NCBI RefSeq assembly: GCF_964355755.1
Contig: NW_027306095.1
Coordinates: 496,001 to 560,000 of the forward strand
DNA from: Antedon mediterranea
Taxonomy: Eukaryota > Animalia > Echinodermata
Direction of reading: 5' to 3'
Length of the DNA stretch: 64,000 bases
How positions within the stretch are numbered: position 1 is the first letter of the stretch; each line of letters begins with the position of its first letter. The position numbers were made by a program, and so were the translations under genes. This document shows, piece by piece, positions 1 to 38,352 of the stretch. Below the pieces are notes generated by a model, which saw nothing but the letters and a program-made list of their open reading frames with translations, ran no database searches and had not been told where the DNA came from.

Positions 1-425
1 ACAAAATAGCAAACTTTTTACACAAAACATCAAAGTGCACAAAAGAGCTCCAAATCGCATTGGGAGACGTTTTAGACCATTTTGTGCATTTCGAAAAAAC
101 TTTTCACTCAAAAACATCAAAGTGCATACAATAGCTTAATATCGTATTTGGAGACGTTTTAGACAATTTTGTGCATTTCGATGAAACTTTTCACACAAAA
201 ACATCAAAGTGCACAAAATAGCTTCAAATCGCATTTGCAGACGTTTTAAACCATTTTGTGCATTTCGATGAAACTTGATTACACAAAACATCAAAGTGCT
301 TAAAATCACATTTGAAACCGTTTTAGACCATTTTGAGAATTTCGATAAAACTTTACACACAAAAACATCAAAGTGCACAAAATAGCTTCAAATCGCATTT
401 AGAGACGTTTTAGACCATTTTGTGT

Positions 426-3016
426 ATTTCGATGAAACTTTTCACACAAAAACATCAAAGTGCACAAAATAGCTTCAAATCGCATTTGGAGACGTTTTAG
501 ACCATGTTGTGCATTTCGAAAAAACTTGATTACACAAAAATATCAAAGTGCTTAAAATCACATTTGAAACCGTTTTAGACAATTTTGAGCATTTCGATAA
601 AACTTTTCACACAAAACATTAAAGTGCACAAAATAGCAAACTTTTTACACAAAACATCAAAGTGCACAAAAGAGCTCCAAATCGCATTGGGAGACGTTTT
701 AGACCATTTTGTGCATTTCGAAAAAACTTTTCACTCAAAAACATCAAAGTGCATACAAGAGCTTAATATCGTATTTGGAGACGTTTTAGACAATTTTGTG
801 CATTTCGATGAAACTTTTCACACAAAAACATCAAAGTGCACAAAATAGCTTCAAATCGCATTTGCAGACGTTTTAAACCATTTTGTGCATTTCGATGAAA
901 CTTGATTACACAAAAACATCAAAGTGCTTAAAATCTCAATTGAAACCGTTTTAGACCATTTTGAGAATTTCGATAAAACTTTTCACACAAAACATTAAAG
1001 TGCACAAAATAGCTTTAAATCGCATTTGCAGACGTTTTAGACCATTTTGTGCATTTTGATGAAACTTGATTACACAAAAATATCAAAGTGCTTAAAATCA
1101 CATTTGAAACCGTTTTAGACCATTTTGAGCATTTCGATAAAACTTTTCACACAAAACATCAAAGTGCACAAAATAACTTCAAATCGCAATTGGAGACGTT
1201 TTAGACCATTTTGTGCATTTCGAAAAAACTTTTCACACAAAAACGACAAAGTGCACAAAATAGCTTCAAATCGCATTTTCAGACGTTTTAGACCATTTTG
1301 TGCATTTCGATGAAACTTTTCACACAAAAACATCAAAGTGCACAAAATTGCTTCAAATCGCATTTGGAGACGTTTTAGACCATTTTGAGCATTTCGATGA
1401 AACTTTTCACACAAAAACGACAAAGTGCACAAAATAGCTTCAAATCGCATTTAGAGACGTTTTAGACCATTTTGTGCATTTCGATGAAACTTTTCACAAA
1501 AAAACATCAAAGTGCACAAAATAGCTTCAAATCGCATTTAGAGACGTTTTAGACCATTTTGTGCATTTCGATGAAACTTTTCACACAAAAACATCAAAGT
1601 GCACAAAATAGCTTCAAATCGCATTTAGAGACGTTTTAGACCATTTTGTGCATTTCGATGAAACTTTTCACAAAAAAACATCAAAGTGCACAAAATAGCT
1701 TCAAATCGCATTTGGAGACGTTTTAGACCATTTTGAGCATTTCGATGAAACTTGATTACACAAAAATATCAAAGTGCTTAAAATCACATTTGAAACCGTT
1801 TTAGACCATTTTGAGCATTTCGATAAAACTTTTCACACAAAACATCAAAGTGCACAAAATAACTTCAAATCGCATTTGGAGACGTTTTAGACCATTTTGT
1901 GCATTTCGAATAAACTTTTCACACAAAAACATCAAAGTGCACAAAATAGCTTCAAATCGCATTTGGAGACGTTTTAGACCATGTTGTGCATTTCGAAAAA
2001 ACTTGATTACACAAAAATATCAAAGTGCTTAAAATCACATTTGAAACCGTTTTAGACAATTTTGAGCATTTCGATAAAACTTTTCACACAAAACATTAAA
2101 GTGCACAAAATAGCAAACTTTTTACACAAAACATCAAAGTGCACAAAAGAGCTCCAAATCGCATTTGGAGACGTTTTAGACCATTTTGTTCATTTCGAAA
2201 AAACTTTTCACTCAAAAACATCAAAGTGCATACAATAGCTTAATATCGTATTTGGAGACGTTTTAGACAATTTTGTGCATTTCGATGAAACTTTTCACAC
2301 AAAAACATCAAAGTGCACAAAATAGCTTCAAATCGCATTTGCAGACGTTTTAAACCATTTAGTGCATTTCGATGAAACTTGATTACACAAAAACATCAAA
2401 GTGCTTAAAATCACATTTGAAACCGTTTTAGACCATTTTGAGAATTTCGATAAAACTTTTCACACAAAACATTAAAGTGCACAAAATAGCTTTAAATCGC
2501 ATTTGCAGACGTTTTAGACCATTTTGTGCATTTCGATGAAACTTGATTACACAAAAATATCAAAGTGCTTAAAATCACATTTGAAACCGTTTTAGACCAT
2601 TTTGAGCATTTCGATAAAACTTTTCACACAAAACATCAAAGTGCACAAAATAACTTCAAATCGCAATTGGAGACGTTTTAGACCATTTTGTGCATTTCGA
2701 TGAAACTTTTCACACAAAAACGACAAAGTGCACAAAATAGCTTCAAATCGCATTTAGAGACGTTTTAGACAATTTTATACATTTCGATGAAACTGGATTA
2801 CACAAAACATCAAAGTGCACAAAATTGCTTCAAATCGCATTTGGAGACGTTTTAGACCATTTTGTGCATTTCGAAAAAACTTTTCACACAAATTCGACAA
2901 AGTGCACAAAATAGCTTCAAATTGCATTTGCAGACGTTTTAGACCATTTTGTGCATTTCGATGAAACTTTTCACACAAAAACATCAAAGTGCACAAAATT
3001 GCTTCAAATCGCATTT
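426..3016 (-). repeat. ~2.6-kb block duplicated at 7564-10154 (offset 7138)
   Basis: ORF pairs 585/7723, 1115/8253, 1811/8949 and 2775/9913 all differ by 7138. Shared rare variants include catacaagag, aatctca, cgaataaac and ttgttcatt. Confidence 0.9.
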
Positions 3017-4443
3017 AGAGACGTTTTAGACAATTTTGTGCCTTTCGATGAAACTTTTCACAAAAAAACATCAAAGTGCACAAAATAGCTTCAAATCGCA
3101 TTTGCAGACGTTTTAGACCATTTTGTGCATTTCGATGAAACTTTTCACACAAAAACATCAAAGTGCACAAAATTGCTTCAAATCGCATTTGGAGACGTTT
3201 TAGACCATTTTGAGCATTTCGATGAAACTTTTCACACAAAAACGACAAAGTGCACAAAATAGCTTCAAATCGCATTTAGAGACGTTTTAGACCATTTTGT
3301 GCATTTCGATGAAACTTTTCACACAAAAACATCAAAGTGCACAAAATAGCTTCAAATCGCATTTAGAGACGTTTTAGACCATTTTGTGCATTTCGATGAA
3401 ACTTTTCACACAAAAACATCAAAGTGCACAAAATAGCTTCAAATCGCATTTGGAGACGTTTTAGACCATGTTGTGCATTTCGAAAAAACTTGATTACACA
3501 AAAATATCAAAGTGCTTAAAATCACATTTGAAACCGTTTTAGACAATTTTGAGCATTTCGATAAAACTTTTCACACAAAACATTAAAAGTGCACAAAATA
3601 GCAAACTTTTCACACAAAAACATCAAAGTGCACAAAATAGCTTCAAATCGCATTTGGAGACGTTTTAGACCATGTTGTGCATTTCGAAAAAACTTGATTA
3701 CACAAAAATATCAAAGTGCTTAAAATCACATTTGAAACCGTTTTAGACAATTTTGAGCATTTCGATAAAACTTTTCACACAAAACATCAAAGTGCACAAA
3801 ATAACTTCAAATCGCAATTGGAGACGTTTTAGACCATTTTGTGCATTTCGATGAAACTTTTCACACAAAAACGACAAAGTGCACAAAATAGCTTCAAATC
3901 GCATTTAGAGACGTTTTAGACAATTTTATACATTTCGATGAAACTGGATTACACAAAACATCAAAGTGCACAAAATTGCTTCAAATCGCATTTGGAGACG
4001 TTTTAGACCATTTTGTGCATTTCGAAAAAACTTTTCACACAAATTCGACAAAGTGCACAAAATAGCTTCAAATTGCATTTGCAGACGTTTTAGACCATTT
4101 TGTGCATTTCGATGAAACTTTTCACACAAAAACATCAAAGTGCACAAAATTGCTTCAAATCGCATTTAGAGACGTTTTAGACAATTTTGTGCCTTTCGAT
4201 GAAACTTTTCACAAAAAAACATCAAAGTGCACAAAATAGCTTCAAATCGCATTTGCAGACGTTTTAGACCATTTTGTGCATTTCGATGAAACTTTTCACA
4301 CAAAAACATCAAAGTGCACAAAATTGCTTCAAATCGCATTTGGAGACGTTTTAGACCATTTTGAGCATTTCGATGAAACTTTTCACACAAAAACGACAAA
4401 GTGCACAAAATAGCTTCAAATCGCATTTAGAGACGTTTTAGAC
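2599..4443 (-). repeat. ~694-bp block (2599-3292) repeated at 3750-4443 (offset 1151)
   Basis: ORFs 2775/3926 and 3015/4166 differ by 1151. Shared variants attttatacattt and aaattcgacaaag. Confidence 0.88.
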
Positions 4444-7400
4444 AATTTTGTGCCTTTCGATGAAACTTTTCACAAAAAAACATCAAAGTGCACAAAATAG
4501 CTTCAAATCGTATTTGGAGACGTTTTAGACAATTTTGTGCATTTCGATGAAACTTTTCACAAAAAAACATCAAAGTGCACAAAATAGCTTCAAATCGCAT
4601 TTGCAGACGTTTTAAACCATTTTGTGCATTTTGATGAAACTTGATTACACAAAAACATCAAAGTGCTTAAAATCACATTTGAAACCGTTTTAGACCATTT
4701 TGAGAATTTGGATAAAACTTTTCACACAAAACATTAAAGTGCACAAAATAGCTTTAAATCGCATTTGCAGACGTTTTATACCATTTTGTGCATTTCGATG
4801 AAACTTGATTACACAAAAATATCAAAGTGCTTAAAATCACATTTGAAACCGTTTTAGACAATTTTGAGCATTTCAATAAAACTTTTCACACAAAACATCA
4901 AAGTGCACAAAATAACTTCAAATCGCAATTGGAGACGTTTTAGACCATTTTGTGCATTTCGAAAAAACTTTTCACACAAAAACGACAAAGTGCACAAAAT
5001 AGCTTCAAATCGCATTTAGAGACGTTTTAGACAATTTTGTACATTTCGATGAAACTGGATTACACAAAACATCAAAGTGCACAAAATTGCTTCAAATCGC
5101 ATTTGGAGACGTTTTAGACCATTTTGTGCATTTCGAAAAAACTTTTCACACAAAAACGACAAAGTGCACAAAATAGCTTCAAATCGCATTTAGAGACGTT
5201 TTAGACAATTTTGTGCATTTCGATGAAACTTTTCACACAAAAACATCAAAGTGCACAAAATAGCTTCAAATCGCATTTTGAGAGGTTTTAGACAATTTTG
5301 TACATTTCGATGAAACTGGATTACACAAAACATCAAAGTGCACAAAATAGCTTCAAATCCCATTTGCAGACGTTTTAAACCATTTTGTGCATTTCGATGA
5401 AACTTGATTACACAAAAACATCAAAGTGCTTAAAATCACATTTGAAACCGTTTTAGACCATTTTGAGAATTTCGATAAAACTTTTCACACATAACATTAA
5501 AGTGCACAAAATAGCTTTAAATCGCATTTGCAGACGTTTTAGACCATTTTGTGCATTTCGATGAAACTTGATTACACAAAAATATCAAAGTGCTTAAAAT
5601 CACATTTGAAACCGTTTTAGACCATTTTGAGCATTTCGATAAAACTTTTCACACAAAACATCAAAGTGCACAAAATAACTTCAAATCGCAATTGAAACCG
5701 TTTTAGACCATTTTGTGCATTTCGATGAAACTTTTCACACAAAAACATCAAAGTGCACAAAATAGCTTCAAATCGCATTTGTAGACGTTTTAGACCATTT
5801 TGAGCATTTCGATGAAACTTTTCACATAAAAACGACAAAGTGCACAAAATAGCTTCAAATCGCATTTAGAGACGTTTTAGACAATTTTGTACATTTCGAT
5901 GAAACTGGATTACAAAAAACATCAAAGTGCACAAAATAGCTTCAAATCGCATTTGCAGACGTTTTAAACCATTTTGTGCATTTCGATGAAACTTGATTAC
6001 ACAAAAACATCAAGGTGCTTAAAATCACATTTGAAACCGTTTTAGACCATTTTGAGCATTTCGATAAAACTTTTCACACAAAACATTAAAGTGCACAAAA
6101 TAGCTTCAAATCGCATTTGGAGACGTTTTAGACCATTTTGAGCATTTCGATGAAACTTTTCACACAAAAACGACAAAGTGCACAAAATAGCTTCAAATCG
6201 CATTTAGAGACGTTTTAGACAATTTTTTACATTTCGATGAAACTGGATTACACAAAACATCAAAGTGCACAAAATAGCTTCAAATCGCATTTGCAGACGT
6301 TTTAAACCATTTTGAGCATTTCGATGAAACTTTTCACACAAAAACGACAAAGTGCACAAAATAGCTTTAAATCGCATTTAGAGACGTTTTAGACCATTTT
6401 GTGCATTTCGATGAAACTTTTCACACAAAAACATCAAAGTGCACAAAATAGCTTCAAATCGCATTTGGAGACGTTTTAGACCATGTTGTGCATTTCGAAA
6501 AAACTTGATTACACAAAAATATCAAAGTGCTTAAAATCACATTTGAAACCGTTTTAGACAATTTTGAGCATTTCGATAAAACTTTTCACACAAAACATTA
6601 AAGTGCACAAAATAGCAAACTTTTTACACAAAACATCAAAGTGCACAAAAGAGCTCCAAATCGCATTGGGAGACGTTTTAGAACATTTTGTGCATTTCAA
6701 TGAAACTTTTCACACAAAAACATCAAAGTGCACAAAATTGCTTCAAATCGCATTTGGAGACGTTTTAGACCATTTTGAGCAATTCGATGAAACTTTTCAC
6801 ACAAAAACGACAAAGTGCACAAAATAGCTTCAAATCGCATTTAGAGACGTTTTAGACAATTTTGTGCCTTTCGATGAAACTTTTCACAAAAAAACATCAA
6901 AGTGCACAAAATAGCTTCAAATCGCATTTGCAGACGTTTTAGACCATTTTGTGCATTTCGATGAAACTTTTCACACAAAAACATCAAAGTGCACAAAATT
7001 GCTTCAAATCGCATTTAGAGACGTTTTAGACCATTTTGTGCATTTCGATGAAACTTTTCACACAAAAACATCAAAGTGCACAAAATAGCTTCAAATCGCA
7101 TTTGCAGACGTTTTAGACCATTTTGTGCATTTCGATGAAACTTTTCACACAAAAACGACAAAGTGCACAAAATATCTTCAAATCGCATTTGGAGACGTTT
7201 TAGACCATTTTGAGCATTTCGATGAAACTTTTCACACAAAAACGACAAAGTGCACAAAATTGCTTCAAATCGCATTTAGAGACGTTTTAGACCATTTTGT
7301 GCATTTCGAAAAAACTTTTCACACAAATTCGACAAAGTGCACAAAATAGCTTCAAATTGCATTTGCAGACGTTTTAGACCATTTTGTGCATTTCGATGAA

Positions 7401-7563
7401 ACTTTTCACACAAAAACATCAAAGTGCACAAAATTGCTTCAAATCGCATTTGGAGACGTTTTAGACCATTTTGAGCATTTCGATGAAACTTTTCACACAA
7501 AAACGACAAAGTGCACAAAATAGCTTTAAATCGCATTTAGAGACGTTTTAGACCATTTTGTGC

Positions 7564-10154
7564 ATTTCGATGAAACTTTTCACACAAAAACATCAAAGTG
7601 CACAAAATAGCTTCAAATCGCATTTGGAGACGTTTTAGACCATGTTGTGCATTTCGAAAAAACTTGATTACACAAAAATATCAAAGTGCTTAAAATCACA
7701 TTTGAAACCGTTTTAGACAATTTTGAGCATTTCGATAAAACTTTTCACACAAAACATTAAAGTGCACAAAATAGCAAACTTTTTACACAAAACATCAAAG
7801 TGCACAAAAGAGCTCCAAATCGCATTGGGAGACGTTTTAGACCATTTTGTGCATTTCGAAAAAACTTTTCACTCAAAAACATCAAAGTGCATACAAGAGC
7901 TTAATATCGTATTTGGAGACGTTTTAGACAATTTTGTGCATTTCGATGAAACTTTTCACACAAAAACATCAAAGTGCACAAAATAGCTTCAAATCGCATT
8001 TGCAGACGTTTTAAACCATTTTGTGCATTTCGATGAAACTTGATTACACAAAAACATCAAAGTGCTTAAAATCTCATTTGAAACCGTTTTAGACCATTTT
8101 GAGAATTTCGATAAAACTTTTCACACAAAACATTAAAGTGCACAAAATAGCTTTAAATCGCATTTGCAGACGTTTTAGACCATTTTGTGCATTTTGATGA
8201 AACTTGATTACACAAAAATATCAAAGTGCTTAAAATCACATTTGAAACCGTTTTAGACCATTTTGAGCATTTCGATAAAACTTTTCACACAAAACATCAA
8301 AGTGCACAAAATAACTTCAAATCGCAATTGGAGACGTTTTAGACCATTTTGTGCATTTCGAAAAAACTTTTCACACAAAAACGACAAAGTGCACAAAATA
8401 GCTTCAAATCGCATTTTCAGACGTTTTAGACCATTTTGTGCATTTCGATGAAACTTTTCACACAAAAACATCAAAGTGCACAAAATTGCTTCAAATCGCA
8501 TTTGGAGACTTTTTAGACCATTTTGAGCATTTCGATGAAACTTTTCACACAAAAACGACAAAGTGCACAAAATAGCTTCAAATCGCATTTAGAGACGTTT
8601 TAGACCATTTTGTGCATTTCGATGAAACTTTTCACAAAAAAACATCAAAGTGCACAAAATAGCTTCAAATCGCATTTAGAGACGTTTTAGACCATTTTGT
8701 GCATTTCGATGAAACTTTTCACACAAAAACATCAAAGTGCACAAAATAGCTTCAAATCGCATTTAGAGACGTTTTAGACCATTTTGTGCATTTCGATGAA
8801 ACTTTTCACAAAAAAACATCAAAGTGCACAAAATAGCTTCAAATCGCATTTGGAGACGTTTTAGACCATTTTGAGCATTTCGATGAAACTTGATTACACA
8901 AAAATATCAAAGTGCTTAAAATCACATTTGAAACCGTTTTAGACCATTTTGAGCATTTCGATAAAACTTTTCACACAAAACATCAAAGTGCACAAAATAA
9001 CTTCAAATCGCATTTGGAGACGTTTTAGACCATTTTGTGCATTTCGAATAAACTTTTCACACAAAAACATCAAAGTGCACAAAATAGCTTCAAATCGCAT
9101 TTGGAGACGTTTTAGACCATGTTGTGCATTTCGAAAAAACTTGATTACACAAAAATATCAAAGTGCTTAAAATCACATTTGAAACCGTTTTAGACAATTT
9201 TGAGCATTTCGATAAAACTTTTCACACAAAACATTAAAGTGCACAAAATAGCAAACTTTTTACACAAAACATCAAAGTGCACAAAAGAGCTCCAAATCGC
9301 ATTTGGAGACGTTTTAGACCATTTTGTTCATTTCGAAAAAACTTTTCACTCAAAAACATCAAAGTGCATACAATAGCTTAATATCGTATTTGGAGACGTT
9401 TTAGACAATTTTGTGCATTTCGATGAAACTTTTCACACAAAAACATCAAAGTGCACAAAATAGCTTCAAATCGCATTTGCAGACGTTTTAAACCATTTAG
9501 TGCATTTCGATGAAACTTGATTACACAAAAACATCAAAGTGCTTAAAATCACATTTGAAACCGTTTTAGACCATTTTGAGAATTTCGATAAAACTTTTCA
9601 CACAAAACATTAAAGTGCACAAAATAGCTTTAAATCGCATTTGCAGACGTTTTAGACCATTTTGTGCATTTCGATGAAACTTGATTACACAAAAATATCA
9701 AAGTGCTTAAAATCACATTTGAAACCGTTTTAGACCATTTTGAGCATTTCGATAAAACTTTTCACACAAAACATCAAAGTGCACAAAATAACTTCAAATC
9801 GCAATTGGAGACGTTTTAGACCATTTTGTGCATTTCGATGAAACTTTTCACACAAAAACGACAAAGTGCACAAAATAGCTTCAAATCGCATTTAGAGACG
9901 TTTTAGACAAGTTTATACATTTCGATGAAACTGGATTACACAAAACATCAAAGTGCACAAAATTGCTTCAAATCGCATTTGGAGACGTTTTAGACCATTT
10001 TGTGCATTTCGAAAAAACTTTTCACACAAATTCGACAAAGTGCACAAAATAGCTTCAAATTGCATTTGCAGACGTTTTAGACCATTTTGTGCATTTCGAT
10101 GAAACTTTTCACACAAAAACATCAAAGTGCACAAAATTGCTTCAAATCGCATTT
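7564..10154 (-). repeat. Second copy of the ~2.6-kb block 426-3016; homology continues at offset 7225 after one extra 87-bp monomer
   Basis: Same ORF offsets as above. ORF 3015..3275 recurs at 10240..10500 (7138+87). Confidence 0.88.
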
Positions 10155-12440
10155 GGAGACGTTTTAGACCATTTTGAGCATTTCGATGAAACTTTTCACA
10201 CAAAAACGACAAAGTTCACAAAATAGCTTCAAATCGCATTTAGAGACGTTTTAGACAATTTTGTGCCTTTCGATGAAACTTTTCACAAAAAAACATCAAA
10301 GTGCACAAAATAGCTTCAAATCGCATTTGCAGACGTTTTAGACCATTTTGTGCATTTCGATGAAACTTTTCACACAAAAACATCAAAGTGCACAAAATTG
10401 CTTCAAATCGCATTTGGAGACGTTTTAGACCATTTTGAGCATTTCGATGAAACTTTTCACACAAAAACGACAAAGTGCACAAAATAGCTTCAAATCGCAT
10501 TTAGAGACGTTTTAGACCATTTTGTGCATTTCGATGAAACTTTTCACAAAAAAACATCAAAGTGCACAAAATAGCTTCAAATCGCATTTAGAGACGTTTT
10601 AGACCATTTTGTGCATTTCGATGAAACTTTTCACACAAAAACATCAAAGTGCACAAAATAGCTTCAAATCGCATTTAGAGACGTTTTAGACCATTTTGTG
10701 CATTTCGATGAAACTTTTCACACAAAAACATCAAAGTGCACAAAATAGCTTCAAATCGCATTTGGAGACGTTTTAGACCATGTTGTGCATTTCGAAAAAA
10801 CTTGATTACACAAAAACATCAAAGTGCTTAAAATCACATTTGAAACCGTTTTAGACCATTTTGAGAATTTCGATAAAACTTTTACACAAAACATTAAAGT
10901 GCACAAAATAGCTTTAAATCGCATTTGCAGACGTTTTAGACCATTTTGTGCATTTCGATGAAACTGGATTACACAAAACATCAAAGTGCACAAAATTGCT
11001 TCAAATCGCATTTGGAGACGTTTTAGACCATTTTGTGCATTTCGAAAAAACTTTTCACACAAAAACGACAAAGTGCACAAAATAGCTTCAAATCACATTT
11101 GAAACCGTTTTAGACCATTTTGAGAATTTCGATAAAACTTTTACACAAAACATTAAAGTGCACAAAATAGCTTTAAATCGCATTTGCAGACGTTTTAGAC
11201 CATTTTGTGCATTTCGATGAAACTTGATTACACAAAAATATCAAAGTGCTTAAAATCACATTTGAAACCGTTTTAGACCATTTTGAGCATTTCGATAAAA
11301 CTTTTCACACAAAACATCAAAGTGCACAAAATAACTTCAAATCGCAATTGGAGACGTTTTAGACCATTTTGTGCATTTCGATGAAACTTTTCACACAAAA
11401 ACGACAAAGTGCACAAAATAGCTTCAAATCGCATTTAGAGACGTTTTAGACAATTTTGTACATTTCGATGAAACTGGATTACACAAAACATCAAAGTGCA
11501 CAAAATTGCTTCAAATCGCATTTGGAGACGTTTTAGACCATTTTGTGCATTTCGAAAAAACTTTTCACACAAAAACGACAAAGTGCACAAAATAGCTTCA
11601 AATCGCATTTGAAGACGTTTTAGACCATTTTGTGCATTTCGATGAAACTTTTCACACAAAAACATCAAAGTGCACAAAATTGCTTCAAATCGCATTTGGA
11701 GACGTTTTAGACAATTTTGTGCCTTTCGATGAAACTTTTCACACAAAAACGACAAAGTGCACAAAATAGCTTCAAATCGCATTTGCAGACGTTTTAGACC
11801 ATTTTGTGCATTTCGATGAAACTTTTCACACAAAAACATCAAAGTGCACAAAATTGCTTCAAATCGCATTTGGAGACGTTTTAGACCATTTTTAGCATTT
11901 CGATGAAACTTTTCACACAAAAACGACAAAGTCCACAAAATAGCTTCAAATCGCATTTAGAGACGTTTTAGACCATTTTGTGCATTTCGATGAAACTTTT
12001 CACAAAAAAACATCAAAGTGCACAAAATAGCTTCAAATCGCATTTAGAGACGTTTTAGACCAATTTGTGCATTTCGATGAAACTTTTCACACAAAAACAT
12101 CAAAGTGCACAAAATAGCTTCAAATCGCATTTAGAGACGTTTTAGACCATTTTGTGCATTTCGATGAAACTTTTCAGAAAAAAACATCAAAGTGCACAAA
12201 ATAGCTTCAAATCGCATTTGGAGACGTTTTAGACCATTTTGAGCATTTCGATGAACCTTTTCACACAAAAACGACAAAGTGCACAAAATAGCTTCAAATC
12301 GCATTTAGAGACGTTTTAGACCATTTTGTGCATTTCGATGAAACTTTTCACACAAAAACATCAAAGTGCACAAAATAGCTTCAAATCGCATTTAGAGACG
12401 TTTTAGACCATTTTGTGCATTTCGATGAAACTTTTCACAC

Positions 12441-12463
12441 AAAACATTAAACTTTGATGTTTT
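12441..12463. other. Orientation-switch (inversion) junction of the satellite array, centred on C12452
   Basis: Sequence aaaacattaaa-c-tttgatgtttt. The left part is a reverse monomer ending just before gtgcac; the right part is a forward monomer starting at the end of gtgcac. Confidence 0.95.
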
Positions 12464-13120
12464 TTTGTGAAAAGTTTCAACAAAATGCACAAAATGGTCT
12501 AAAACGTCTCTAAATGCGATTTGAAGCTATTTTGTGCACTTTGATGTTTTTTTGTGAAAAGTTTCATCGAAATGCACAAAATGGTCTAAAACGTCTCTAA
12601 ATGCGATTTGAAGCTATTTTGTGCACTTTGTCGTTTTTGTGTGAAAAGTTTCATCGAAATGCTCAAAATGGTCTAAAACGTCTCCAAATGCGATTTGAAG
12701 CAATTTTGTGCAATTTGATGTTTTTGTGTGAAAAGTTTCATCGAAATGCACAAAATGGTCTAAAACGTCTCCAAATGCGATTTGAAGCTATTTTGTGCAC
12801 TTTGATGTTTTTTTGTGAAAAGTTTCATCGAAATGCACAAAATTGTCTAAAACGTCTCTAAATCCGATTTGAAGCTATTTTGTGCACTTTGTCGTTTTTG
12901 TGTGAAAAGTTTCATCGAAATGCTCAAAATGGTCTAAAACGTCTCCAAATGCGATTTGAAGCAATTTTGTGCACTTTGATGTTTTTGTGTGAAAAGTTTC
13001 ATCGAAATGCACAAAATGGTCTAAAACGTCTGCAAAAGCGATTTGAAGCTATTTTGTGCACTTTGTCGTTTTTGTGTGAAAAGTTTTTTCGAAATGCACA
13101 AAATGGTCTAAAACGTCTCC

Positions 13121-13824
13121 AATTGCGATTTGAAGTTATTTTGTGCACTTTGGTGTTTTGTGTGAAAAGTTTTATCGAAATGCTCAAAATCGTCTAAAAC
13201 GGTTTCAAATGTGATTTTAAGCACTTTGATATTTTTGTGTAATCAAGTTTCATCGAAATGCACAAAATGGTCTAAAACGTCTGCAAATGCGATTTAAAGC
13301 TATTTTGTGCACTTTAATGTTTTGTGTGAAAAGTTTTATCGAAATTCTCAAAATGGTCTAAAACGGTTTCAAATGTGATTTTAAGCACTTTGAGGTTTTT
13401 GTGTAATCAAGTTTCATCGAAATGCACAAAATGGTTTAAAACGTCTGCAAATGCGATTTGAAGCTATTTTGTGCACTTTGATGTTTTTGTGTGAAAAGTT
13501 TCATCGAAATGCACAAAATTGTCTAAAACGTCTCCAAATACGATATTAAGCTATTGTATGCACTTTGATGTTTTTGAGTGAAAAGTTTTTTCGAAATGCA
13601 CAAAATGGTCTAAAACGTCTCCCAATGCGATTTGGAGCTCTTTTGTGCACTTTGATGTTTTGTGTAAAAAGTTTGCTATTTTGTGCACTTTAATGTTTTG
13701 TGTGAAAAGTTTTATCGAAATGCTCAAAATTGTCTAAAACGGTTTCAAATGTGATTTTAAGCACTTTGATATTTTTGTGTAATCAAGTTTTTTCGAAATG
13801 CACAACATGGCCTAAAACGTCTCC
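13121..13824 (+). repeat. Representative 704-bp nine-unit module (86-78-86-78-87-87-38-86-78), recurring whole or in part in both domains
   Basis: Unit lengths sum to 704, matching aattgcg at 13121 to aaatgcg at 13825. The same ordered variants recur at ~18710-19413, ~24796-25499, ~31322-32025, ~44104-44807, and inverted at ~490-1190 and ~1965-2670. Confidence 0.88.
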
Positions 13825-14263
13825 AAATGCGATTTGAAGCTATTTTGTGCACTTTGATGTTTTTGTGTGAAAAGTTTCATCGAAATACACAAAATGGTCT
13901 AAAACGTCTCTAAATGCGATTTGAAGCTATTTTGTGCACTTTGATGTTTTTGTGTGAAAAGTTTCATCGAAATGCACAAAATGGTCTAAAACGTCTCTAA
14001 ATGCGATTTCAAGCTATTTTGTGCACTTTGATGTTTTTGTGTGAAAAGTTTCATCGAAATGCACAAAATTGTCTTAAACGTCTCCAAATACGATATTAAG
14101 CTATTGTATGCACTTTGTTGTTTTTGAGTGAAAAGTTTTTTCGAAATGCACAAAATTGTCTAAAACGTCCCCAAATGCGATTTGGAGCTCTTTTGTGCAC
14201 TTTGATGTTTTGTGTAAAAAGTTTGCTATTTTGTGCACTTTAATGTTTTGTGTGAAAAGTTTT

Positions 14264-16390
14264 ATCGAAATGCTCAAAATTGTCTAAAACGGTTTCAAAT
14301 GTGATTTTAAGCACTTTGATATTTTTGTGTAATCAAGTTTTTTCGAAATGCACAACATGGTCTAAAACGTCTCCAAATGCGATTTGAAGCTATTTTGTGC
14401 ACTTTGATGTTTTTGTGTGAAAAGTTTCATCGAAATGCACAAAATGGTCTAAAACGTCTCTAAATGCGATTTGAAGCTATTTTGTGCACTTTGTCGTTTT
14501 TGTGTGAAAAGTTTTTTCGAAATGCACAAAATGGTCTAAAACGTCTCCAATTGCGATTTGAAGTTATTTTGTGCACTTTGATGTTTTGTGTGAAAAGTTT
14601 TATCGAAATGCTCAAAATGGTCTAAAACGGTTTCAAATGTGATTTTAAGCACTTTGATGTTTTTGTGTAATCAAGTTTCATCGAAATGCACAAAATGGTT
14701 TAAAACGTCTGCAAATGCGATTTGAAGCTATTTTGTGCACTTTGATGTTTTTGTGTGAAAAGTTTCATCGAAATGCACAAAATTGTCTAAAACGTCTCCA
14801 AATTCGATATTAAGCTATTATATGCACTTTGATGTTTTTGAGTGAAAAGTTTTTTCGAAATGCACAAAATGTTCTAAAACGTCTCCAAATGCCATTTGGA
14901 GCTCTTTTGTGCACTTTAATTTTTTTTGTGTAAAAGTTTTCTATTTTGTGCACTTTTAATGTTTTGTGTGAAAAGTTTTATCGAAATGCTCAAAATTGTC
15001 TAAAACGGTTTCAAATGTGATTTTAAGCACTTTGATATTTTTGTGTAATCAAGTTTTTTCGAAATGCACAACATGGTCTAAAACGTCTCCAAATGCGATT
15101 TGAAGCTATTTTGTGCACTTTGATGTTTTTTTGTGAAAAGTTTCATCGAAATGCACAAAATGGTCTAAAACGTCTGCAAATGCGATTTGAAGCTATTTTA
15201 TGCACTTTGATGTTTTTTTGTGAAAAGTTTCATCGAAAGGCACAAAATTGTCTAAAACGTCTCTAAATGCGATTTGAAGCTATTTTGTGCACTTTGTCGT
15301 TTTTGTGTGAAAAGTTTCATCGAAATGCTCAAAATTGTCTAAAACGGTTTCAAATGTGATTTTAAGCACTTTGATATTTTTGTGTAATCAAGTTTTTTCG
15401 AAATGCACAACATGGTCTAAAACGTCTCCAAATGCGATTTGAAGCTATTTTGTGCACTTTGATGTTTTTGTGTGAAAAGTTTCATCGAAATGCACAAAAT
15501 GGTCTAAAACGTCTCTAAATGCGATTTGAAGCTATTTTGTGCACTTTGTCGTTTTTGTGTGAAAAGTTTTTTCGAAATGCACAAAATGGTCTAAAACGTC
15601 TCCAATTGCGATTTGAAGTTATTTTGTGCACTTTGATGTTTTGTGTGAAAAGTTTTATCGAAATGCTCAAAATGGTCTAAAACGGTTTCAAATGTGATTT
15701 TAAGCACTTTGATGTTTTTGTGTAATCAAGTTTCATCGAAATGCACAAAATGGTTTAAAACGTCTGCAAATGCGATTTGAAGCTATTTTGTGCACTTTGA
15801 TGTTTTTGTGTGAAAAGTTTCATCGAAATGCACAAAATTGTCTAAAACGTCTCCAAATTCGATATTAAGCTATTATATGCACTTTGATGTTTTTGAGTGA
15901 AAAGTTTTTTCGAAATGCACAAAATGTTCTAAAACGTCTCCAAATGCCATTTGGAGCTCTTTTGTGCACTTTAATTTTTTTGGTGTAAAAGTTTTCTATT
16001 TTGTGCACTTTTAATGTTTTGTGTGAAAAGTTTTATCGAAATGCTCAAAATTGTCTAAAACGGTTTCAAATGTGATTTTAAGCACTTTGATATTTTTGTG
16101 TAATCAAGTTTTTTCGAAATGCACAACATGGTCTAAAACGTCTCCAAATGCGATTTGAAGCTATTTTGTGCACTTTGATGTTTTTTTGTGAAAAGTTTCA
16201 TCGAAATGCACAAAATGGTCTAAAACGTCTGCAAATGCGATTTGAAGCTATTTTATGCACTTTGATGTTTTTTTGTGAAAAGTTTCATCGAAAGGCACAA
16301 AATTGTCTAAAACGTCTCTAAATGCGATTTGAAGCTATTTTGTGCACTTTGTCGTTTTTGTGTGAAAAGTTTCATCGAAATGCTCAAAAT
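14264..16390 (+). repeat. Direct tandem duplication, period 1055 bp
   Basis: Rare variants gccatttgga (14891/15946), aaattcgatat, tattatatgc, aatgttct and ttttatgcac all recur at +1055. Confidence 0.9.
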
Positions 16391-17599
16391 GGTCTAAAAC
16401 GTCTCCAAATGCGATTTGAAGCAATTTTGTGCACTTTGATGTTTTTGTGTGAAAAGTTTCATCGAAATGCACAAAATGGTCTAAAACGTCTGCAAATGCG
16501 ATTTGAAGCTATTTTGTGCACTTTGTCGTTTTTGTGTGAAAAGTTTTTTTGAAATGCACAAAATGGTTGGTCTAAAACGTCTCCAAATGCGATTTGAAGC
16601 AATTTTGTGCACTTTGATGTTTTGTGTAATCCAGTTTCATCGCAATGTACAAAATTGTCTAAAACGTCTCTAAATGCGATTTGAAGCTATTTTGTGCACC
16701 TTGTCGTTTTTGTGTGAAAAGTTTCATCGAAATGCACAAAATGGTCTAAAACGTCTCCAATTGCGATTTGAAGTTATTTTGTGCACTTTGATGTTTTGTG
16801 TGAAAAGTTTTATCGAAATGCTCAAAATGGTCTAAAACGGTTTCAAATGTGATTTTAAGCACTTTGATATTTTTGTGTAATCAAGTTTCATCGAAATTCA
16901 CAAAATGGTCTAAAACGTCTGCAAATGCGATTTAAAGCTATTTTGTGCACTTTAATGTTTTGTGTGAAAAGTTTTATCGAAATTCTCAAAATGGTCTAAA
17001 ACGGTTTCAAATGTGATTTTAAGCACTTTGATGTTTTTGTGTAATCAAGTTTCATCGAAATGCACTAAATGGTTTAAAACGTCTGCAATTGCGATTTGAA
17101 GCTATTTTGTGCACTTTGATGTTTTTGTGTGAAAAGTTTCATCGAAATGCCCAAAATTGTCTAAAACGTCTCCAAATACGATATTAAGCTATTGTATGCA
17201 CTTTGATGTTTTTGAGTGAAAAGTTTTTTCGAAATGCACAAAATGGTCTAAAACGTCTCCAAATGCGATTTGGAGCTCTTTTGTGCACTTTGATGTTTTG
17301 TGTAAAAAGTTTGCTATTTTGTGCACTTTAATGTTTTGTGTGAAAAGTTTTTTCGAAATGCTCAAAATTGTCTAAAACGGTTTCAAATGTGATTTTAAGC
17401 ACTTTGATATTTTTGTGTAATCAAGTTTTTTCGAAACGCACAACATGGTCTAAAACGTCTCTAAATGCGATTTGAAGCTATTTTGTGCACTTTGATGTTT
17501 TTTTGTGAAAAGTTTCATCGAAATGCACAAAATGGTCTAAAACGTCTCTAAATGCGATTTGAAGCTATTTTGTGAACTTTGATGTTTTTGTGTGAAATG

Positions 17600-19480
17600 T
17601 TTCATCGAAATGCTCAAAATGGTCTAAAACGTCTCCAAATGCGATTTGAAGCAATTTTGTGCAATTTGATGTTTTTGTGTGAAAAGTTTCATCGAAATGC
17701 ACAAAATGGTCTAAAACGTCTGCAAATGCGATTTGAAGCTATTTTGTGCACTTTGATGTTTTTGTGTGAAAAGTTTCATCGAAATGCACAAAATTGTCTA
17801 AAACGTCTCCAAATACGATATTAAGCTATTGTATGCACTTTGATGTTTTTGAGTGAAAAGTTTTTTCGAAATGCACAAAATGGTCTAAAACGTCTCCAAA
17901 TGCGATTTGGAGCTCTTTTGTGCACTTTGATGTTTTGTGTAAAAAGTTTGCTATTTTGTGCACTTTAATGTTTTGTGTGAAAAGTTTTATCGAAATGCTC
18001 AAAATTGTCTAAAACGGTTTCAAATGTGATTTTAAGCACTTTGATATTTTTGTGTAATCAAGTTTTTTCGAAACGCACAACATGGTCTAAAACGTCTCTA
18101 AATGCGATTTGAAGCTATTTTGTGCACTTTGATGTTTTTTTGTGAAAAGTTTCATCGAAATGCACAAAATGGTCTAAAACGTCTCTAAATGCGATTTGAA
18201 GCTATTTTGTGCACTTTGTCGTTTTTGTGTGAAAAGTTTCATCGAAATGCTCAAAATGGTCTAAAACGTCTCCAAATGCGATTTGAAGCAATTTTGTGCA
18301 ATTTGATGTTTTTGTGTGAAAAGTTTCATCGAAATGCACAAAATGGTCTAAAACGTCTGCAAATGCGATTTGAAGCTATTTTGTGCACTTTGATGTTTTT
18401 TTGTGAAAAGTTTCATCGAAATGCACAAAATTGTCTAAAACGTCTCTAAATGCGATTTGAAGCTATTTTGTGCACTTTGTCGTTTTTGTGTGAAAAGTTT
18501 CATCGAAATGCTCAAAATGGTCTAAAACGTCTCCAAATGCGATTTGAAGCAATTTTGTGCACTTTGATGTTTTTGTGTGAAAAGTTTCATCGAAATGCAC
18601 AAAATGGTCTAAAACGTCTGCAAATGCGATTTGAAGCTATTTTGTGCACTTTGTCGTTTTTGTGTGAAAAGTTTTTTCGAAATGCACAAAATGGTCTAAA
18701 ACGTCTCCAATTGCGATTTGAAGTTATTTTGTGCACTTTGATGTTTTGTGTGAAAAGTTTTATCGAAATGCTCAAAATGGTCTAAAACGGTTTCAAATGT
18801 GATTTTAAGCACTTTGATATTTTTGTGTAATCAAGTTTCATCGAAATGCACAAAATGGTCTAAAACGTCTGCAAATGCGATTTAAAGCTATTTTGTGCAC
18901 TTTAATGTTTTGTGTGAAAAGTTTTATCAAAATTCTCAAAATGGTCTAAAACGGTTTCAAATGTGATTTTAAGCACTTTGATGTTTTTGTGTAATCAAGT
19001 TTCATCGAAATGCACTAAATGGTTTAAAACGTCTGCAAATGCGATTTGAAGCTATTTTGTGCACTTTGAAGTTTTTGTGTGAAAAGTTTCATCGAAATGC
19101 ACAAAATTGTCTAAAACGTCTCCAAATACGATATTAAGCTATTGTATGCACTTTGATGTTTTTGAGTGAAAAGTTTTTTCGAAATGCACAAAAGGGTCTA
19201 AAACGTCTCCAAATGCGATTTGGAGCTCTTTTGTGCACTTTGATGTTTTGTGTAAAAAGTTTGCTATTTTGTGCACTTTAATGTTTTGTGTGAAAAGTTT
19301 TATCGAAATGCTCAAAATTGTCTAAAACGGTTTCAAATGTGATTTTAAGCACTTTGATATTTTTGTGTAATCAAGTTTTTTCGAAATGCACAACATGGTC
19401 TAAAACGTCTCCAAATGCGATTTGAAGCTATTTTGTGCACTTTGATGTTTTTGTGTGAAAAGTTTCATCGAAATGCACAA
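17600..19480 (+). repeat. ~1.9-kb block repeated at ~23690-25570 (offset 6086)
   Basis: ORFs 18450/24536 and 18587/24673 differ by 6086. Shared variants aaagggtct (19191/25277), atcaaaattctc and aaacgcacaac. Confidence 0.82.
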
Positions 19481-22400
19481 AATGGTCTAAAACGTCTCTA
19501 AATGCGATTTGAAGCTATTTTGTGCACTATGATGTTTTTGTGTGAAAAGTTTCATCGAAATGCACAAAATGGTCTAAAACGTCTCTAAATGCGATTTGAA
19601 GCTATTTTGTGCACTTTGTCGTTTTTGTGTGAAAAGTTTCATCGAAATGCTCAAAATGGTCTAAAACGTCTCCAAATGCGATTTGAAGCTATTTTGTGCA
19701 CTTTGATGTTTTTTTGTGAAAAGTTTCATCGAAATGCACAAAATGGTCTAAAACGTCTCTAAATGCGATTTGAAGCTGTTTTGTGCACTTTGATGTTTTT
19801 GTGTGAAAAGTTTCATCGAAATGCACAAAATGGTCTAAAACGTCTCTAAATGCGATTTGAAGCTATTTTGTGCACTTTGATGTTTTTTTGTGAAAAGTTT
19901 CATCGAAATGCACAAAATGGTCTAAAACGTCTCTAAATGCGATTTGAAGCTATTTTGTGCACTTTGTCGTTTTTGTGTGAAAAGTTTCATCGAAATGCTC
20001 AAAATGGTCTAAAACGTCTCCAAATGCGATTTGAAGCAATTTTGTGCAATTTGATGTTTTTGTGTGAAAAGTTTCATCGAAATGCACAAAATGGTCTAAA
20101 ACGTCTCCAAATGCGATTTGAAGCTATTTTGTGCACTTTGATGTTTTTTTGTGAAAAGTTACATCGAAATGCACAAAATTGTCTAAAACGTCTCTAAATC
20201 CGATTTGAAGCTATTTTGTGCACTTTGTCGTTTTTGTGTGAAAAGTTTCATCGAAATGCTCAAAATGGTCTAAAACGTCTCCAAATGCGATTTGAAGCAA
20301 TTTTGTGCACTTTGATGTTTTTGTGTGAAAAGTTTCATCGAAATGCACAAAATGGTCTAAAACGTCTGCAAATGCGATTTGAAGCTATTTTGTGCACTTT
20401 GTCGTTTTTGTGTGAAAGGTTTTTTCGAAATGCACAAAATGGTCTAAAACGTCTCCAATTGCGATTTGAAGTTATTTTGTGCACTTTGATGTTTTGTGTG
20501 AAAAGTTTTATCGAAATGCTCAAAATGGTCTAAAACGGTTTCAAATGTGATTTTAAGCACTTTGATATTTTTGTGTAATCAAGTTTCATCGAAATGCACA
20601 AAATGGTCTAAAACGTCTGCAAATGCGATTTAAAGCTATTTTGTGCACTTTAATGTTTTGTGTGAAAAGTTTTATCGAAATTCTCAAAATGGTCTAAAAC
20701 GGTTTCAAATGTGATTTTAAGCACTTTGATTTTTTTGTGTAATCAAGTTTCATCGAAATGCACAAAATGGTTTAAAACGTCTGCAAATGCGATTTGAAGC
20801 TATTTTGTGCACTTTGATGTTTTTGTGTGAAAAGTTTCATCGAAATGCACAAAATTGTCTAAAACGTCTCCAAATACGATATTAAGCTATTGTATGCACT
20901 TTGATGTTTTTGAGTGAAAAGTTTTTTCGAAATGCACAAAATGGTCTAAAACGTCTCCAAATGCGATTTTGAGCTCTTTTGTACACTTTGATGTTTTGTG
21001 TAAAAAGTTTGCTATTTTGTGCACTTTAATGTTTTGTGTGAAAAGTTTTATCGAAATGCTCAAAATTGTCTATAACGGTTTCAAATGTGATTTTAAGCAC
21101 TTTGATATTTTTGTGTAATCAAGTTTTTTCGAAACGCACAACATGGTCTAAAACGTCTCTAAATGCGATTTGAAGCTATTTTGTGCACTTTGATGTTTTT
21201 TTGTGAAAAGTTTCATCGAAATGCACAAAATGGTCTAAAACGTCTCTAAATGCGATTTGAAGCTATTTTGTGCACTTTGTCGTTTTTGTGTGAAAAGTTT
21301 CATCGAAATGCTCAAAATGGTCTAAAACGTCTCCAAATGCGATTTGAAGCAATTTTGTGCAATTTGATGTTTTTGTGTGAAAAGTTTCATCGAAATGCAC
21401 AAAATGGTCTAAAACGTCTGCAAATGCGATTTGAAGCTATTTTGTGCACTTTGATGTTTTTGTGTGAAAAGTTTCATCGAAATGCACAAAATTGTCTAAA
21501 ACGTCTCCAAATACGATATTAAGCTATTGTATGCACTTTGATGTTTTTGAGTGAAAAGTTTTTTCGAAATGCACAAAATGGTCTAAAACGTCTCCAAATG
21601 CGATTTGGAGCTCTTTTGTGCACTTTGATGTTTTGTGTAAAAAGTTTGCTATTTTGTGCACTTTAATGTTTTGTGTGAAAAGTTTTATCGAAATGCTCAA
21701 AATTGTCTAAAACGGTTTCAAATGTGATTTTAAGCACTTTGATATTTTTGTGTAATCAAGTTTTTTCGAAACGCACAACATGGTCTAAAACGTCTCTAAA
21801 TGCGATTTGAAGCTATTTTGTGCACTTTGATGTTTTTTTGTGAAAAGTTTCATCGAAATGCACAAAATGGTCTAAAACGTCTCTAAATGCGATTTGAAGC
21901 TATTTTGTGCACTTTGTCGTTTTTGTGTGAAAAGTTTCATCGAAATGCTCAAAATGGTCTAAAACGTCTCTAAATGCGATTTGAAGCTATTTTGTGCACT
22001 TTGATGTTTTTTTGTGAAAAGTTTTATCGAAATTCTCAAAATGGTCTAAAACGGTTTCAAATGTGATTTTAAGCACTTTTATGTTTTTGTGTAATCAAGT
22101 TTCATCGAAATGCACTAAATGGTTTAAAACGTCTGCAAATGCGATTTGAAGCTATTTTGTGCACTTTGATGTTTTTGTGTGAAAAGTTTCATCGAAATGC
22201 ACAAAATTGTCTAAAACGTCTCCAAATACGATATTAAACTATTGTATGCACTTTGATGTTTTTGAGTGAAAAGTTTTTTCGAAATGCACAAAATGGTCTA
22301 AAACGTCTCCAAATGCGATTTGGAGCTCTTTTGTGCACTTTGATGTTTTGTGTAAAAAGTTTGCTATTTTGTGCACTTTAATGTTTTGTGTGAAAAGTTT

Positions 22401-25400: not shown

Positions 25401-25570
25401 AAATTGTCTAAAACGGTTTCAAATGTGATTTTAAGCACTTTGATATTTTTGTGTAATCAAGTTTTTTCGAAATGCACAACATGGTCTAAAACGTCTCCAA
25501 ATGCGATTTGAAGCTATTTTGTGCACTTTGATGTTTTTGTGTGAAAAGTTTCATCGAAATGCACAAAATG

Positions 25571-27100
25571 GTCTCAAACGTCTGGAAATGCGAGTTGAAG
25601 CTATTTTGTGCACTTTGTCGTTTTTGTGTGAAAAGTATATTCGAAATGCTCAAAATGGTCTAAAACGTCTCCAAATGCGATTTGAAGCTATTTTGTGATT
25701 TTAAGAACTTTGATGTTTTTGTGTGAAAAGTTTCATCGAAATGCACAAAATGGTCTAAATGCGATTTGAAGCTATTTTGTGCACTTTGATGTTTTTTTGT
25801 GAAAAGTTTCATCGAAATGCACAAAATGGTCTAAAACGTCTCCAAATACGATATTAAGCTATTGTATGTATGTTGATGTTTTTGTGTGAAAAGTTTTATC
25901 GAAATGCTCAAAATGGTCTAAAACGGTTTCAAATGTGATTTTAAGCACTTTGATGTTTTTGTGTAATCAAGTTTCATCGAAATGCACAAAATGGTCTAAA
26001 ACATCTGCAAATGCGATTTTAAGCTATTTTGTGCACTTTCATGTTTTGTGTGAAAAGTTTTATCGAAATGCTCAAAATGGTCTAAAACGGTTTCAAATGT
26101 GATTTTAAGCACTTTGATATTTTTGTGTAATCAAGTTTCATCGAAATGCACCAAATTGTCTAAAACGTCTGCAAATGCGATTTGAAGCTATTTTGTGCAC
26201 TTTGATGTTTTTGTGTGAAAAGTTTCATCGAAATGCACAAAATGGTCTAAAACGTCTCCAAATATGATATTAAGCTATTGTATGCACTTTGTTGTTTTTA
26301 TCTGAAAAGTTTTCACGAAATGCACAAAAGATCTAAAACGTCTCTAAATGCGATTTGAAGTTATTTTGTGCACTTTAATGTTTTGTGTGAAAAGTTTTAT
26401 CGAAATGCACAAAATGGTCTAAAACGTCTCCAAATGCGATTTGAAGCTATTTTGTGCACTTTGATGTTTTGTGTGAAAAGTTTCACCAAAATGCACAAAA
26501 TGGTCTAAAACGTCTCCAAATCCGTTTTGAAGCTAATCTAAGCACTTTGATGTTGTTATGTTAAACAAGTTTTTTCGAAATGCACAAAATGGTCTAAAAC
26601 GTCTCCAAATACGATATAAGCTCTTTTGTGCACTTTGATGTTTTGTGTAATAAGTTTTATAGAAACGCACAAAATGGTCTAAAACGGTTTCAAATGTTAT
26701 TTTAAGCACTTTGATATTTTTGTTTAACCAAGTTTCATCGAAATGCACATAATGGTCTAAAACGTCTCCAAATGCGATTTGAAGCTGTTTTTGTGTGAAA
26801 AGTTTTTTCGAAATACACAAAATGGTCTAAAACGTCTCCAAATACAATTTGGAACTCTTTTGTGCACTTTGATGTTTTTTGTCAAAAGTTTTATAGAAAT
26901 GCTCGAAATGGTCTAAAACGGTTTCAAATGTGATTTTAAGCACTTTGATATTTTTGTGTAATCAAGTTTCATCGAAATGCACAAAATGGTCTAAAACGTG
27001 TTCAAATGCGATTTGAAGCTATTTTGTGATTTTAAGAATTTTGATATTTTTGTGTAATCAAGTTTCATCGAATGCACAAACTGTTCTAAACCTCTCAAAA
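25571..27100 (+). repeat. Diverged ~1.53-kb satellite cassette, copy 1 (subtype a)
   Basis: Dense diagnostic variants: ctcaaacgtctggaaatgcgagtt, aagtatattcg, gtatgtatgttg, gctaatctaagc, gttgttatgttaaac, gtttaaccaag, gaagctgtttttg. Confidence 0.9.
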
Positions 27101-38000: not shown

Positions 38001-38352
38001 ATTAAGCTATTGTATGCACTTTGATGTTTTTGAGTGAAAAGTTTTTTCGAAATGCACAAAATGGTCTAAAACGTCTCCAAATGCGATTTGGAGCTCTTTT
38101 GTGCACTTTGATGTTTTGTGTAAAAAGTTTGCTATTTTGTGCACTTTAATGTTTTGTGTGAAAAGTTTTATCGAAATGCTCAAAATTGTCTAAAACGGTT
38201 TCAAATGTGATTTTAAGCACTTTGATATTTTTGTGTAATCAAGTTTTTTCGAAATGCACAACATGGTCTAAAACGTCTCCAAATGCGATTTGAAGCTATT
38301 TTGTGCACTTTGATGTTTTTGTGTGAAAAGTTTCATCGAAATGCACAAAATG

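What the first reader, a model, noticed from the sequence alone, without database searches (positions are those of the whole stretch)
12441..12463. Strand switch in register at the GTGCAC palindrome, forming a giant inverted repeat with a 1-nt centre
Seen: a perfect fusion through the self-complementary hexamer would read cattaaa-GTGCAC-tttgatg. The observed junction is cattaaa-C-tttgatg, so 5 of the 6 bases are lost and there is no filler. Both sides break at the same monomer position, which is unlikely for two independent random breaks in an 87-bp unit. At least 12.4 kb per side is mirror-symmetric at consensus level. Inference: it arose by fold-back or template switching at the palindrome, or by hairpin opening with tip trimming.
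Basis: partly seen in the sequence, partly recalled or inferred. Interest (0 to 1): 0.8.

Follow-up and report, generated by a model that had tools for sequence, protein, structure and literature searches.

The report
In-register flip in satellite DNA array
A long array of an 87-base repeat changes direction once, at almost the same spot of the repeat on both sides, but the two sides are not mirror copies, so this is likely an old inversion scar of a kind already known from human and beetle repeat DNA.

Summary
All 64 kb is one 87-bp satellite with a single clean orientation switch at 12452: no filler, breaks 1 nt apart in the monomer, and 5 of 6 bases of GTGCAC missing. That much is confirmed. 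The 'giant mirror' is not. Over 140 monomers, mirror pairs differ as much as random pairs (15.4 vs 15.9). The tips differ at 16 of 434 columns, mostly standing array variants, and each tip matches another part of the array better. This excludes a recent fold-back copy and a fold-back read artefact. The register is unlikely by chance (0.03; 0.003-0.009 with a palindrome). Best reading (0.45): two different monomers were joined by annealing at GTGCAC, the only in-register inverted microhomology of 6 nt or more, and a small centre deletion followed. Rivals: ordinary end-joined inversion, sister fusion, assembly chimera. Spanning reads could not be tested. Such switches are published for human and Tribolium satellites, and this scan noted in-register switches in two other genomes. 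New member of a known kind.

The parts
11..12451 (+). Left arm: 87-bp AT-rich satellite (about 32% GC), about 143 copies with irregular higher-order structure; runs off the window's left end
   Evidence: TRF; 150 monomer units incl. 38-, 81- and 83-bp variants; 3,165-bp internal duplicate at 98.9%
12452..63996 (-). Right arm: same satellite in the opposite orientation, about 590 copies; runs off the window's right end
   Evidence: TRF; strand-diagnostic 15-mers
12445..12459 (.). Orientation-switch junction: no filler, breaks 1 nt apart in monomer coordinates at the edge of GTGCAC, 1-nt microhomology, 5 of 6 hexamer bases missing
   Evidence: one match in the window, 0 in 100 shuffles
12019..12886 (.). 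Imperfect inverted stem of five monomers per side, about 96% identical; per-monomer distances 5,1,2,4,4 then 7,7,7,18
   Evidence: 16 differences in 434 columns; predicted hairpin of -101.3 kcal/mol for 12352-12552 with a 3-nt loop (prediction only)
12367..12451 (+). Left tip monomer: body of the plain type with the tail of another variant type; its last 30 bases occur once in the window
19440..21023 (-). Array segment that holds the closest matches of both tips (left tip about monomer 87, right tip about monomer 91 from the junction)
25123..48150 (-). Recent 12.8-kb tandem duplication inside the right arm (10,247 bp at 99.85%)

Best explanation
The window is one 87-bp satellite array with a single orientation switch whose arms are different array members rather than mirror copies; the switch is likely a real, old inversion-type junction, likely primed when a broken end at the self-complementary hexamer GTGCAC annealed to the same hexamer of another monomer, with a likely later 5-base deletion at the centre. 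Every intact monomer carries the hexamer at the same position, so such a join (fold-back with a loop of whole monomers, or a template switch between copies) lands in register by itself and need not give identical tips. The first product would have kept the hexamer between arms about 96% alike and would be prone to extrude a cruciform; trimming of such centres is known for palindromes. Later array turnover would have scrambled any longer symmetry. Shown: the anatomy, the non-identity of the arms, the microhomology landscape. Inferred: reality in the chromosome, priming at the hexamer, the deletion as a second step, the age.
For: Register by chance 0.034; with GTGCAC 0.0025; with any short palindrome 0.009. 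Among all 87x87 break pairs, the only inverted microhomologies of 6 nt or more are a 10-nt and a 7-nt pair (both out of register) and GTGCAC (in register); 533 of 792 monomer boundaries carry it. The four 3.1-kb right-arm bins nearest the junction rank 1, 2, 4 and 5 of 16 in similarity to the left arm (0.42 vs 0.31), and three indel variants are absent from the left arm and from the first 13.2 kb of the right arm; both point to a local event, though the bins are not independent. Precedent: fold-back junctions with 2-8 bp inverted microhomology and a spacer (PMC3907307, passages); centre deletions in a mouse palindrome, 93% of 118 rearrangements (review PMC8701086, passages).
Against: The hexamer is gone and the junction shows only 1 nt of microhomology, as do 2,000 of 7,569 random break pairs, so two steps must be assumed. 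A longer, 10-nt inverted repeat exists in the monomer and was not used. No loop size restores long identity between the arms: the best of 17 monomer offsets is not better than chance (P 0.20-0.26), and the longest block tying the right tip to the left arm (1,531 bp, 97.8%) is at background level. A 5-base loss that leaves a 1-base centre adds little asymmetry, so it would stabilise little (inference). n = 1 junction.
Confidence: 0.45

Rival explanations
1. Ordinary two-break inversion (at least 12.4 kb) repaired by end joining. The near-register is chance, or reflects breaks biased to one monomer position, for example by phased nucleosomes on the 174-bp dimer. A reciprocal divergent junction would lie outside the window.
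For: No filler, 1-nt microhomology and tips that are different array members are what end joining gives in one step. Human beta-satellite and HSat3 arrays hold hundreds of switches spread along the arrays (10.64898/2026.07.22.740206 and 10.1101/2021.07.12.452052, passages). Similarity of the left arm to the near right arm also fits a local inversion.
Against: Needs a 0.003-0.03 coincidence plus tip similarity at P about 0.02. Nucleosome phasing was not tested.
Confidence: 0.23
2. Assembly artefact: a chimeric long read or a misjoin fused two satellite fragments in opposite orientation.
For: The junction lies in a highly repetitive array where misjoins occur (general knowledge), and its centred 9- to 21-mers occur once in the window.
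Against: Fold-back read artefacts map back to the same place on the other strand and were virtually absent from HiFi data (PMC12338684, passages); here 11 of 16 tip differences are standing array variants on both sides, not read errors. A random chimera explains neither the register nor the likeness of the left arm to the near right arm. Exact repeats up to 2,693 bp suggest accurate reads.
Confidence: 0.17
3. Symmetric U-turn: sister-chromatid fusion or hairpin capping at one break made a perfect palindrome at any monomer position, and later conversion and unequal exchange replaced the arms almost to the tip.
For: Gives the register directly. Monomer types match for the first three units on both sides and the offset-0 similarity has P about 0.02. 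Collinear runs between close left-right paralogues are short anyway (median 5 monomers among 811 pairs), so an old stem could have decayed.
Against: The very first monomer pair already differs at 5 positions in 30 bases, three of them standing variants; each tip is far closer to other copies (right tip 10 vs 74 differences in 870 bp; left tip 9 vs 24 in 522 bp). All 21 sequenced human inverted-duplication junctions had a spacer (PMC3907307).
Confidence: 0.11
4. Centre of a very large foldback transposon made of two opposed satellite arrays, like the 19-kb elements that earlier notes describe in this genome.
For: Earlier unchecked notes e1-10649806 and e1-10650426 report such elements in this genome.
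Against: The right arm exceeds 51 kb and holds 12.8-kb tandem duplications; the monomer differs in length (87 vs 181-196 bp); no element ends are in the window.
Confidence: 0.04

Closest known systems
Tribolium freemani TfSat01 inversion segments (bioRxiv 10.1101/2024.12.02.626372; passages read; supplements not seen)
   Same: An abruptly ended monomer joined to a reversed truncated monomer, no foreign sequence between, stem running almost to the tip, multi-kb opposed subarrays.
   Different: There the two monomers end at different positions and predicted loops are 9-27 bp; six junction types recur on 3-7 chromosomes among 1,793 arrays. Here the ends are 1 nt apart, the predicted loop is 3 nt, and one junction is seen in 64 kb.
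Tribolium madens TmSat1/TmSat2 macro-dyad symmetries (PMC13081366; abstract, passages and part 1 of 2 of section 7 read)
   Same: Array-level dyad from opposed subarrays of tens of kb (up to 75 kb there).
   Different: Thousands of conserved inversion sites with a degenerate subunit (10.7-23.5% diverged), confirmed on raw HiFi reads. Here the tip monomers are near-consensus, and recurrence and read support are untested.
Strand switches in human satellites: HSat3B5 (chr9), beta satellite, 1.7-Mb inversion in the chr1 alpha HOR array (10.1101/2021.07.12.452052; 10.64898/2026.07.22.740206; passages)
   Same: Orientation switch inside a homogeneous tandem array with higher-order structure.
   Different: The passages read report positions along arrays, not break positions within the monomer, so register cannot be compared.
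Fold-back inverted duplications (Hermetz et al., PMC3907307; passages) and centre deletions of palindromes (review PMC8701086; passages)
   Same: Short inverted microhomology as primer; small deletions at palindrome centres.
   Different: Those are new events in unique or transgene DNA with identical arms beyond a spacer of 766 bp or more; no such identity is found here.

Membership tests
Satellite orientation switch (inversion breakpoint) | Same tandem repeat on both sides in opposite orientation | tested here: met
Satellite orientation switch (inversion breakpoint) | Junction supported by spanning raw reads | not testable with these tools
   All 20 runs listed were kept as assembled contigs
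Satellite orientation switch (inversion breakpoint) | Reciprocal breakpoint (for a two-break inversion) | not testable with these tools
   None in the window; no genome held
Tribolium-type macro-dyad symmetry | Multi-kb opposed subarrays with no foreign DNA at the switch | tested here: met
   longest run of rare 12-mers only 31 positions
Tribolium-type macro-dyad symmetry | The same inversion site recurs, conserved, across the genome | tested here: inconclusive
   One copy in the window; the contig look-ups cannot show absence
Tribolium-type macro-dyad symmetry | (Peri)centromeric location, intermingled with a second satellite | not testable with these tools
   No second satellite in the window; chromosome position unknown
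Recent fold-back palindrome or fold-back read artefact | Arms are copies of each other at the tip or beyond a spacer | tested here: not met
   16 of 434 columns differ; better matches elsewhere; no offset restores identity
Fold-back inverted duplication (Hermetz type) | Inverted microhomology of 2 nt or more kept at the junction | tested here: not met
   1 nt
Foldback transposon | Terminal inverted repeats and target-site duplication | not testable with these tools
   Both arms run off the window

The most novel reading that the evidence does not exclude
Orientation switches of this 87-bp satellite are seeded, again and again, at the monomer's own self-complementary hexamer and then trimmed. 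A short palindrome in the repeat unit would then dictate where large arrays flip, building Tribolium-like macro-dyads in a marine invertebrate (a feather star by earlier notes), outside the one genus where PMC13081366 says they are documented.
Probability: 0.1. Interest if true: 0.55.

Novelty: new member of a known kind. Interest (0 to 1): 0.22.

Why it matters
Satellite arrays flip orientation in many genomes, but the papers read here say little about where in the monomer the flips happen or how they are primed. A rule that a short palindrome in the monomer seeds in-register flips would be directly testable in any complete assembly and would bear on the hairpin and cruciform ideas of centromere function. 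One junction cannot show such a rule. As it stands this is a clean single example of a known feature, in a satellite for which the paper searches found no description.

Tried and rejected
(1) Whole genome: not held, so no genome-wide census of switches and no search for a reciprocal junction. (2) Public runs: 20 listed, best share 0.80 of 15 sampled words, two organism labels at 0.73-0.80, all kept as contigs. I laid 5 of the 20 (X15-X19). On 12375-12530, 10,651-52,481 records per run were laid and none of the 32 listed pieces (100,845 not shown) crossed the junction. On 12422-12482, 218-848 records per run were laid; the 32 listed pieces (the longest kept; 1,758 not shown) were 30-32 nt and none had more than 5 bases on the far side of 12452. 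The tool states that contigs drop rare variants and that a hole proves nothing, and it is unknown whether these runs come from the assembled individual, so this is not counted as evidence either way. The 3 missing words of 15 would fit the 66 of 221 single-copy 31-mers in that stretch, but which words were sampled is unknown. (3) Metagenome contigs: 0 hits for an in-register junction pattern (the pattern finds the window's junction) and 0 for a plain monomer 24-mer, so the satellite was not seen in that collection and the negative says nothing. (4) GTGCAC as a general fragile site: of 11 indel or jump classes of 5 nt or more, about 7 look independent and 2 of those end in the hexamer, against about 1 expected (my estimate); not significant. 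(5) Fold-back with a 4-monomer loop: distances 4,1,1,2 then 7,5,7,14; not better than chance once 17 offsets are allowed (P 0.20). (6) An apparent second switch at 62874-62887 is a point variant. (7) Rare 31-mer sharing gave only 11 events with no clear trend towards the junction. (8) Coding or RNA function: 16 stop-free stretches of 100-173 codons with recurring lengths, as expected from repeats; 0 Rfam hits among 4,227 families in 11500-13500. (9) Paper searches for this satellite or for monomer-level junction register found nothing specific (listings only).

Full report
What is there. The whole window is one AT-rich satellite (about 32% GC) with an 87-bp unit. TRF finds two arrays, 11-12451 (143.3 copies) and 12451-63996 (590.4 copies), the second being the reverse complement of the first. 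Cutting both arms into units gave 794 monomers, 255 of them distinct, with 38-, 81- and 83-bp variants in an irregular higher-order order. No foreign insertion is evident: the longest run of rare 12-mers is 31 positions. Rfam gave 0 hits near the junction. Earlier unchecked notes call the genome a likely feather star; I did not test this. The run search lists aquatic and marine metagenomes among holders and two organism labels at 0.73-0.80 of the words, and 10,651-52,481 contig records per run fit a 156-base stretch, so the family is likely abundant.

The junction. There is exactly one switch: 11,404 forward and 0 reverse diagnostic 15-mers on the left, 42,534 reverse and 0 forward on the right. 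The left tip normally continues with GTGCAC; the right tip is normally preceded by GTGCA. So the left arm kept none of the hexamer, the right arm kept one base, the breaks are 1 nt apart, there is no filler, and 1 nt (A) is shared. GTGCAC is the only 6-bp palindrome of the commonest monomer. The '1-nt centre' is local: centre 12452 pairs 10 of the first 11 bases but only 48 of 120, whereas centre 12452.5 pairs 111 of 120. The stretch 12352-12552 is predicted to fold into a hairpin of -101.3 kcal/mol with a 3-nt loop (z -21.6). That follows from any in-register switch and shows nothing about the cell.

The arms are not mirror copies. Over 140 monomers the mean distance between mirror partners is 15.4, against 15.9 for random pairs. 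The longest exact inverted match (485 bp) and the longest block of at least 97% (1,667 bp) lie far off the mirror diagonal. In the five monomers next to the junction the tips differ at 16 of 434 columns; in 11 both alleles occur elsewhere in the array in the same context, and in 5 one allele's context is private. The right tip differs from its mirror at 74 of 870 bases but from a copy 91 monomers away at only 10; the left tip differs at 24 of 522 against 9. A recent fold-back copy is therefore excluded. So is a fold-back read artefact, which by definition maps back to the same place and was virtually absent in the HiFi data examined by PMC12338684 (passages).

The symmetry is still more than two random breaks would give. 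Register within 1 nt has P 0.034; 0.0025 if both breaks must also touch GTGCAC and 0.009 for any 4-6 bp palindrome, a criterion chosen after the fact. Independently of that choice, the first 3-6 monomer pairs are more alike than random left-right pairs (P 0.016-0.024 over 84,915-87,216 pairs). The four right-arm bins nearest the junction rank 1, 2, 4 and 5 of 16 in likeness to the left arm (0.42 vs 0.31). Three indel variants appear only 13.2 kb or more to the right. The bins are not independent, since the distal right arm holds a 12.8-kb duplication at 99.85%, so this is moderate support for a local event. Against over-reading: allowing 17 monomer offsets, the best tip match is ordinary (P 0.20-0.26), rare shared 31-mers show no clear trend, and indel ends do not cluster significantly at the hexamer.

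Mechanism. Of all 7,569 break pairs, inverted microhomology of 6 nt or more comes only from a 10-nt and a 7-nt internal inverted repeat, both out of register, and from GTGCAC, in register. The hexamer is intact at 533 of 792 boundaries. A broken 3' end there can pair with the hexamer of any other monomer, which gives an in-register switch between non-identical monomers, as seen. Fold-back priming on 2-8 bp of inverted microhomology is documented (PMC3907307, passages). Such a join keeps the hexamer, so its loss needs a second step; small centre deletions are the usual fate of a long palindrome in mouse cells (93% of 118 rearrangements, as reviewed in PMC8701086, passages). Both steps are inferred, and I give this 0.45. 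A one-step end-joined inversion with chance or chromatin-biased register fits the junction letters equally well but needs the coincidence (0.23). A chimeric read or misjoin remains open because no raw reads could be examined (0.17). A symmetric sister fusion later eroded (0.11) and a foldback transposon centre (0.04) follow.

What is known. Human satellites hold hundreds of strand switches and a megabase inversion in an active alpha array (passages). Tribolium freemani has filler-free junctions of truncated opposed monomers with 9-27 bp loops, recurring across chromosomes (passages; its supplementary alignments were not seen and could show how close to register they are). T. madens has thousands of conserved inversion sites in dyads up to 75 kb. 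This junction works like those. Membership of the Tribolium macro-dyad class needs recurrence, which is untested. Earlier notes of this scan describe in-register satellite switches in two other genomes, both read as amplified old scars; they are unchecked and are not evidence. Ten paper searches found no description of this satellite or of monomer-level register; the library lacks most subscription journals.

Verdict. The switch and its near-register are real in the sequence; the giant palindrome is not. It is a new example of a known feature with a plausible but unproven priming story. Interest 0.22.

Noticed in passing
window 25123-53785 and 59063-63773: Near-identical large tandem duplications in the right arm: periods 12,782, 12,946 and 12,833 bp, up to 10,247 bp at 99.85%. 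A very recent 12.8-kb higher-order unit; read support would be needed to exclude an assembly duplication.
   Followed up: partly
whole window: Collinear block length falls with divergence (10 kb at 99.85%, 5.8 kb at 99.5%, 2-3 kb at 98.8%, 1.5-2 kb at 98%): a usable clock for array turnover.
   Followed up: no
whole window, e.g. 13148-13311: The commonest length variant is a 10-base deletion that starts inside GTGCAC (136 copies, both arms); a 48-base deletion gives 38-bp monomers (43-45 copies).
   Followed up: partly
window 12367-12420 and every plain monomer: The monomer has a 10-bp internal inverted repeat with a 33-nt spacer, a candidate for small hairpins of the kind proposed for centromeric satellites.
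   Followed up: no
window 12449-12455: The seven junction bases also occur once inside each normal monomer (122 + 453 times in the window), and a common variant there (AAACTTGAT) resembles the junction; a 5-nt inverted microhomology links that site with the hexamer edge. It could mark a small templated inversion; untested.
   Followed up: no
window 12422-12482: Five of the 16 tip differences fall in the first 30 bases from the junction, probably as two events; they would weaken cruciform extrusion at the tip.
   Followed up: partly
public runs X15-X19: The satellite is held at 0.73-0.80 of sampled words under two organism labels (D and E), so it may be shared between related species.
   Followed up: partly
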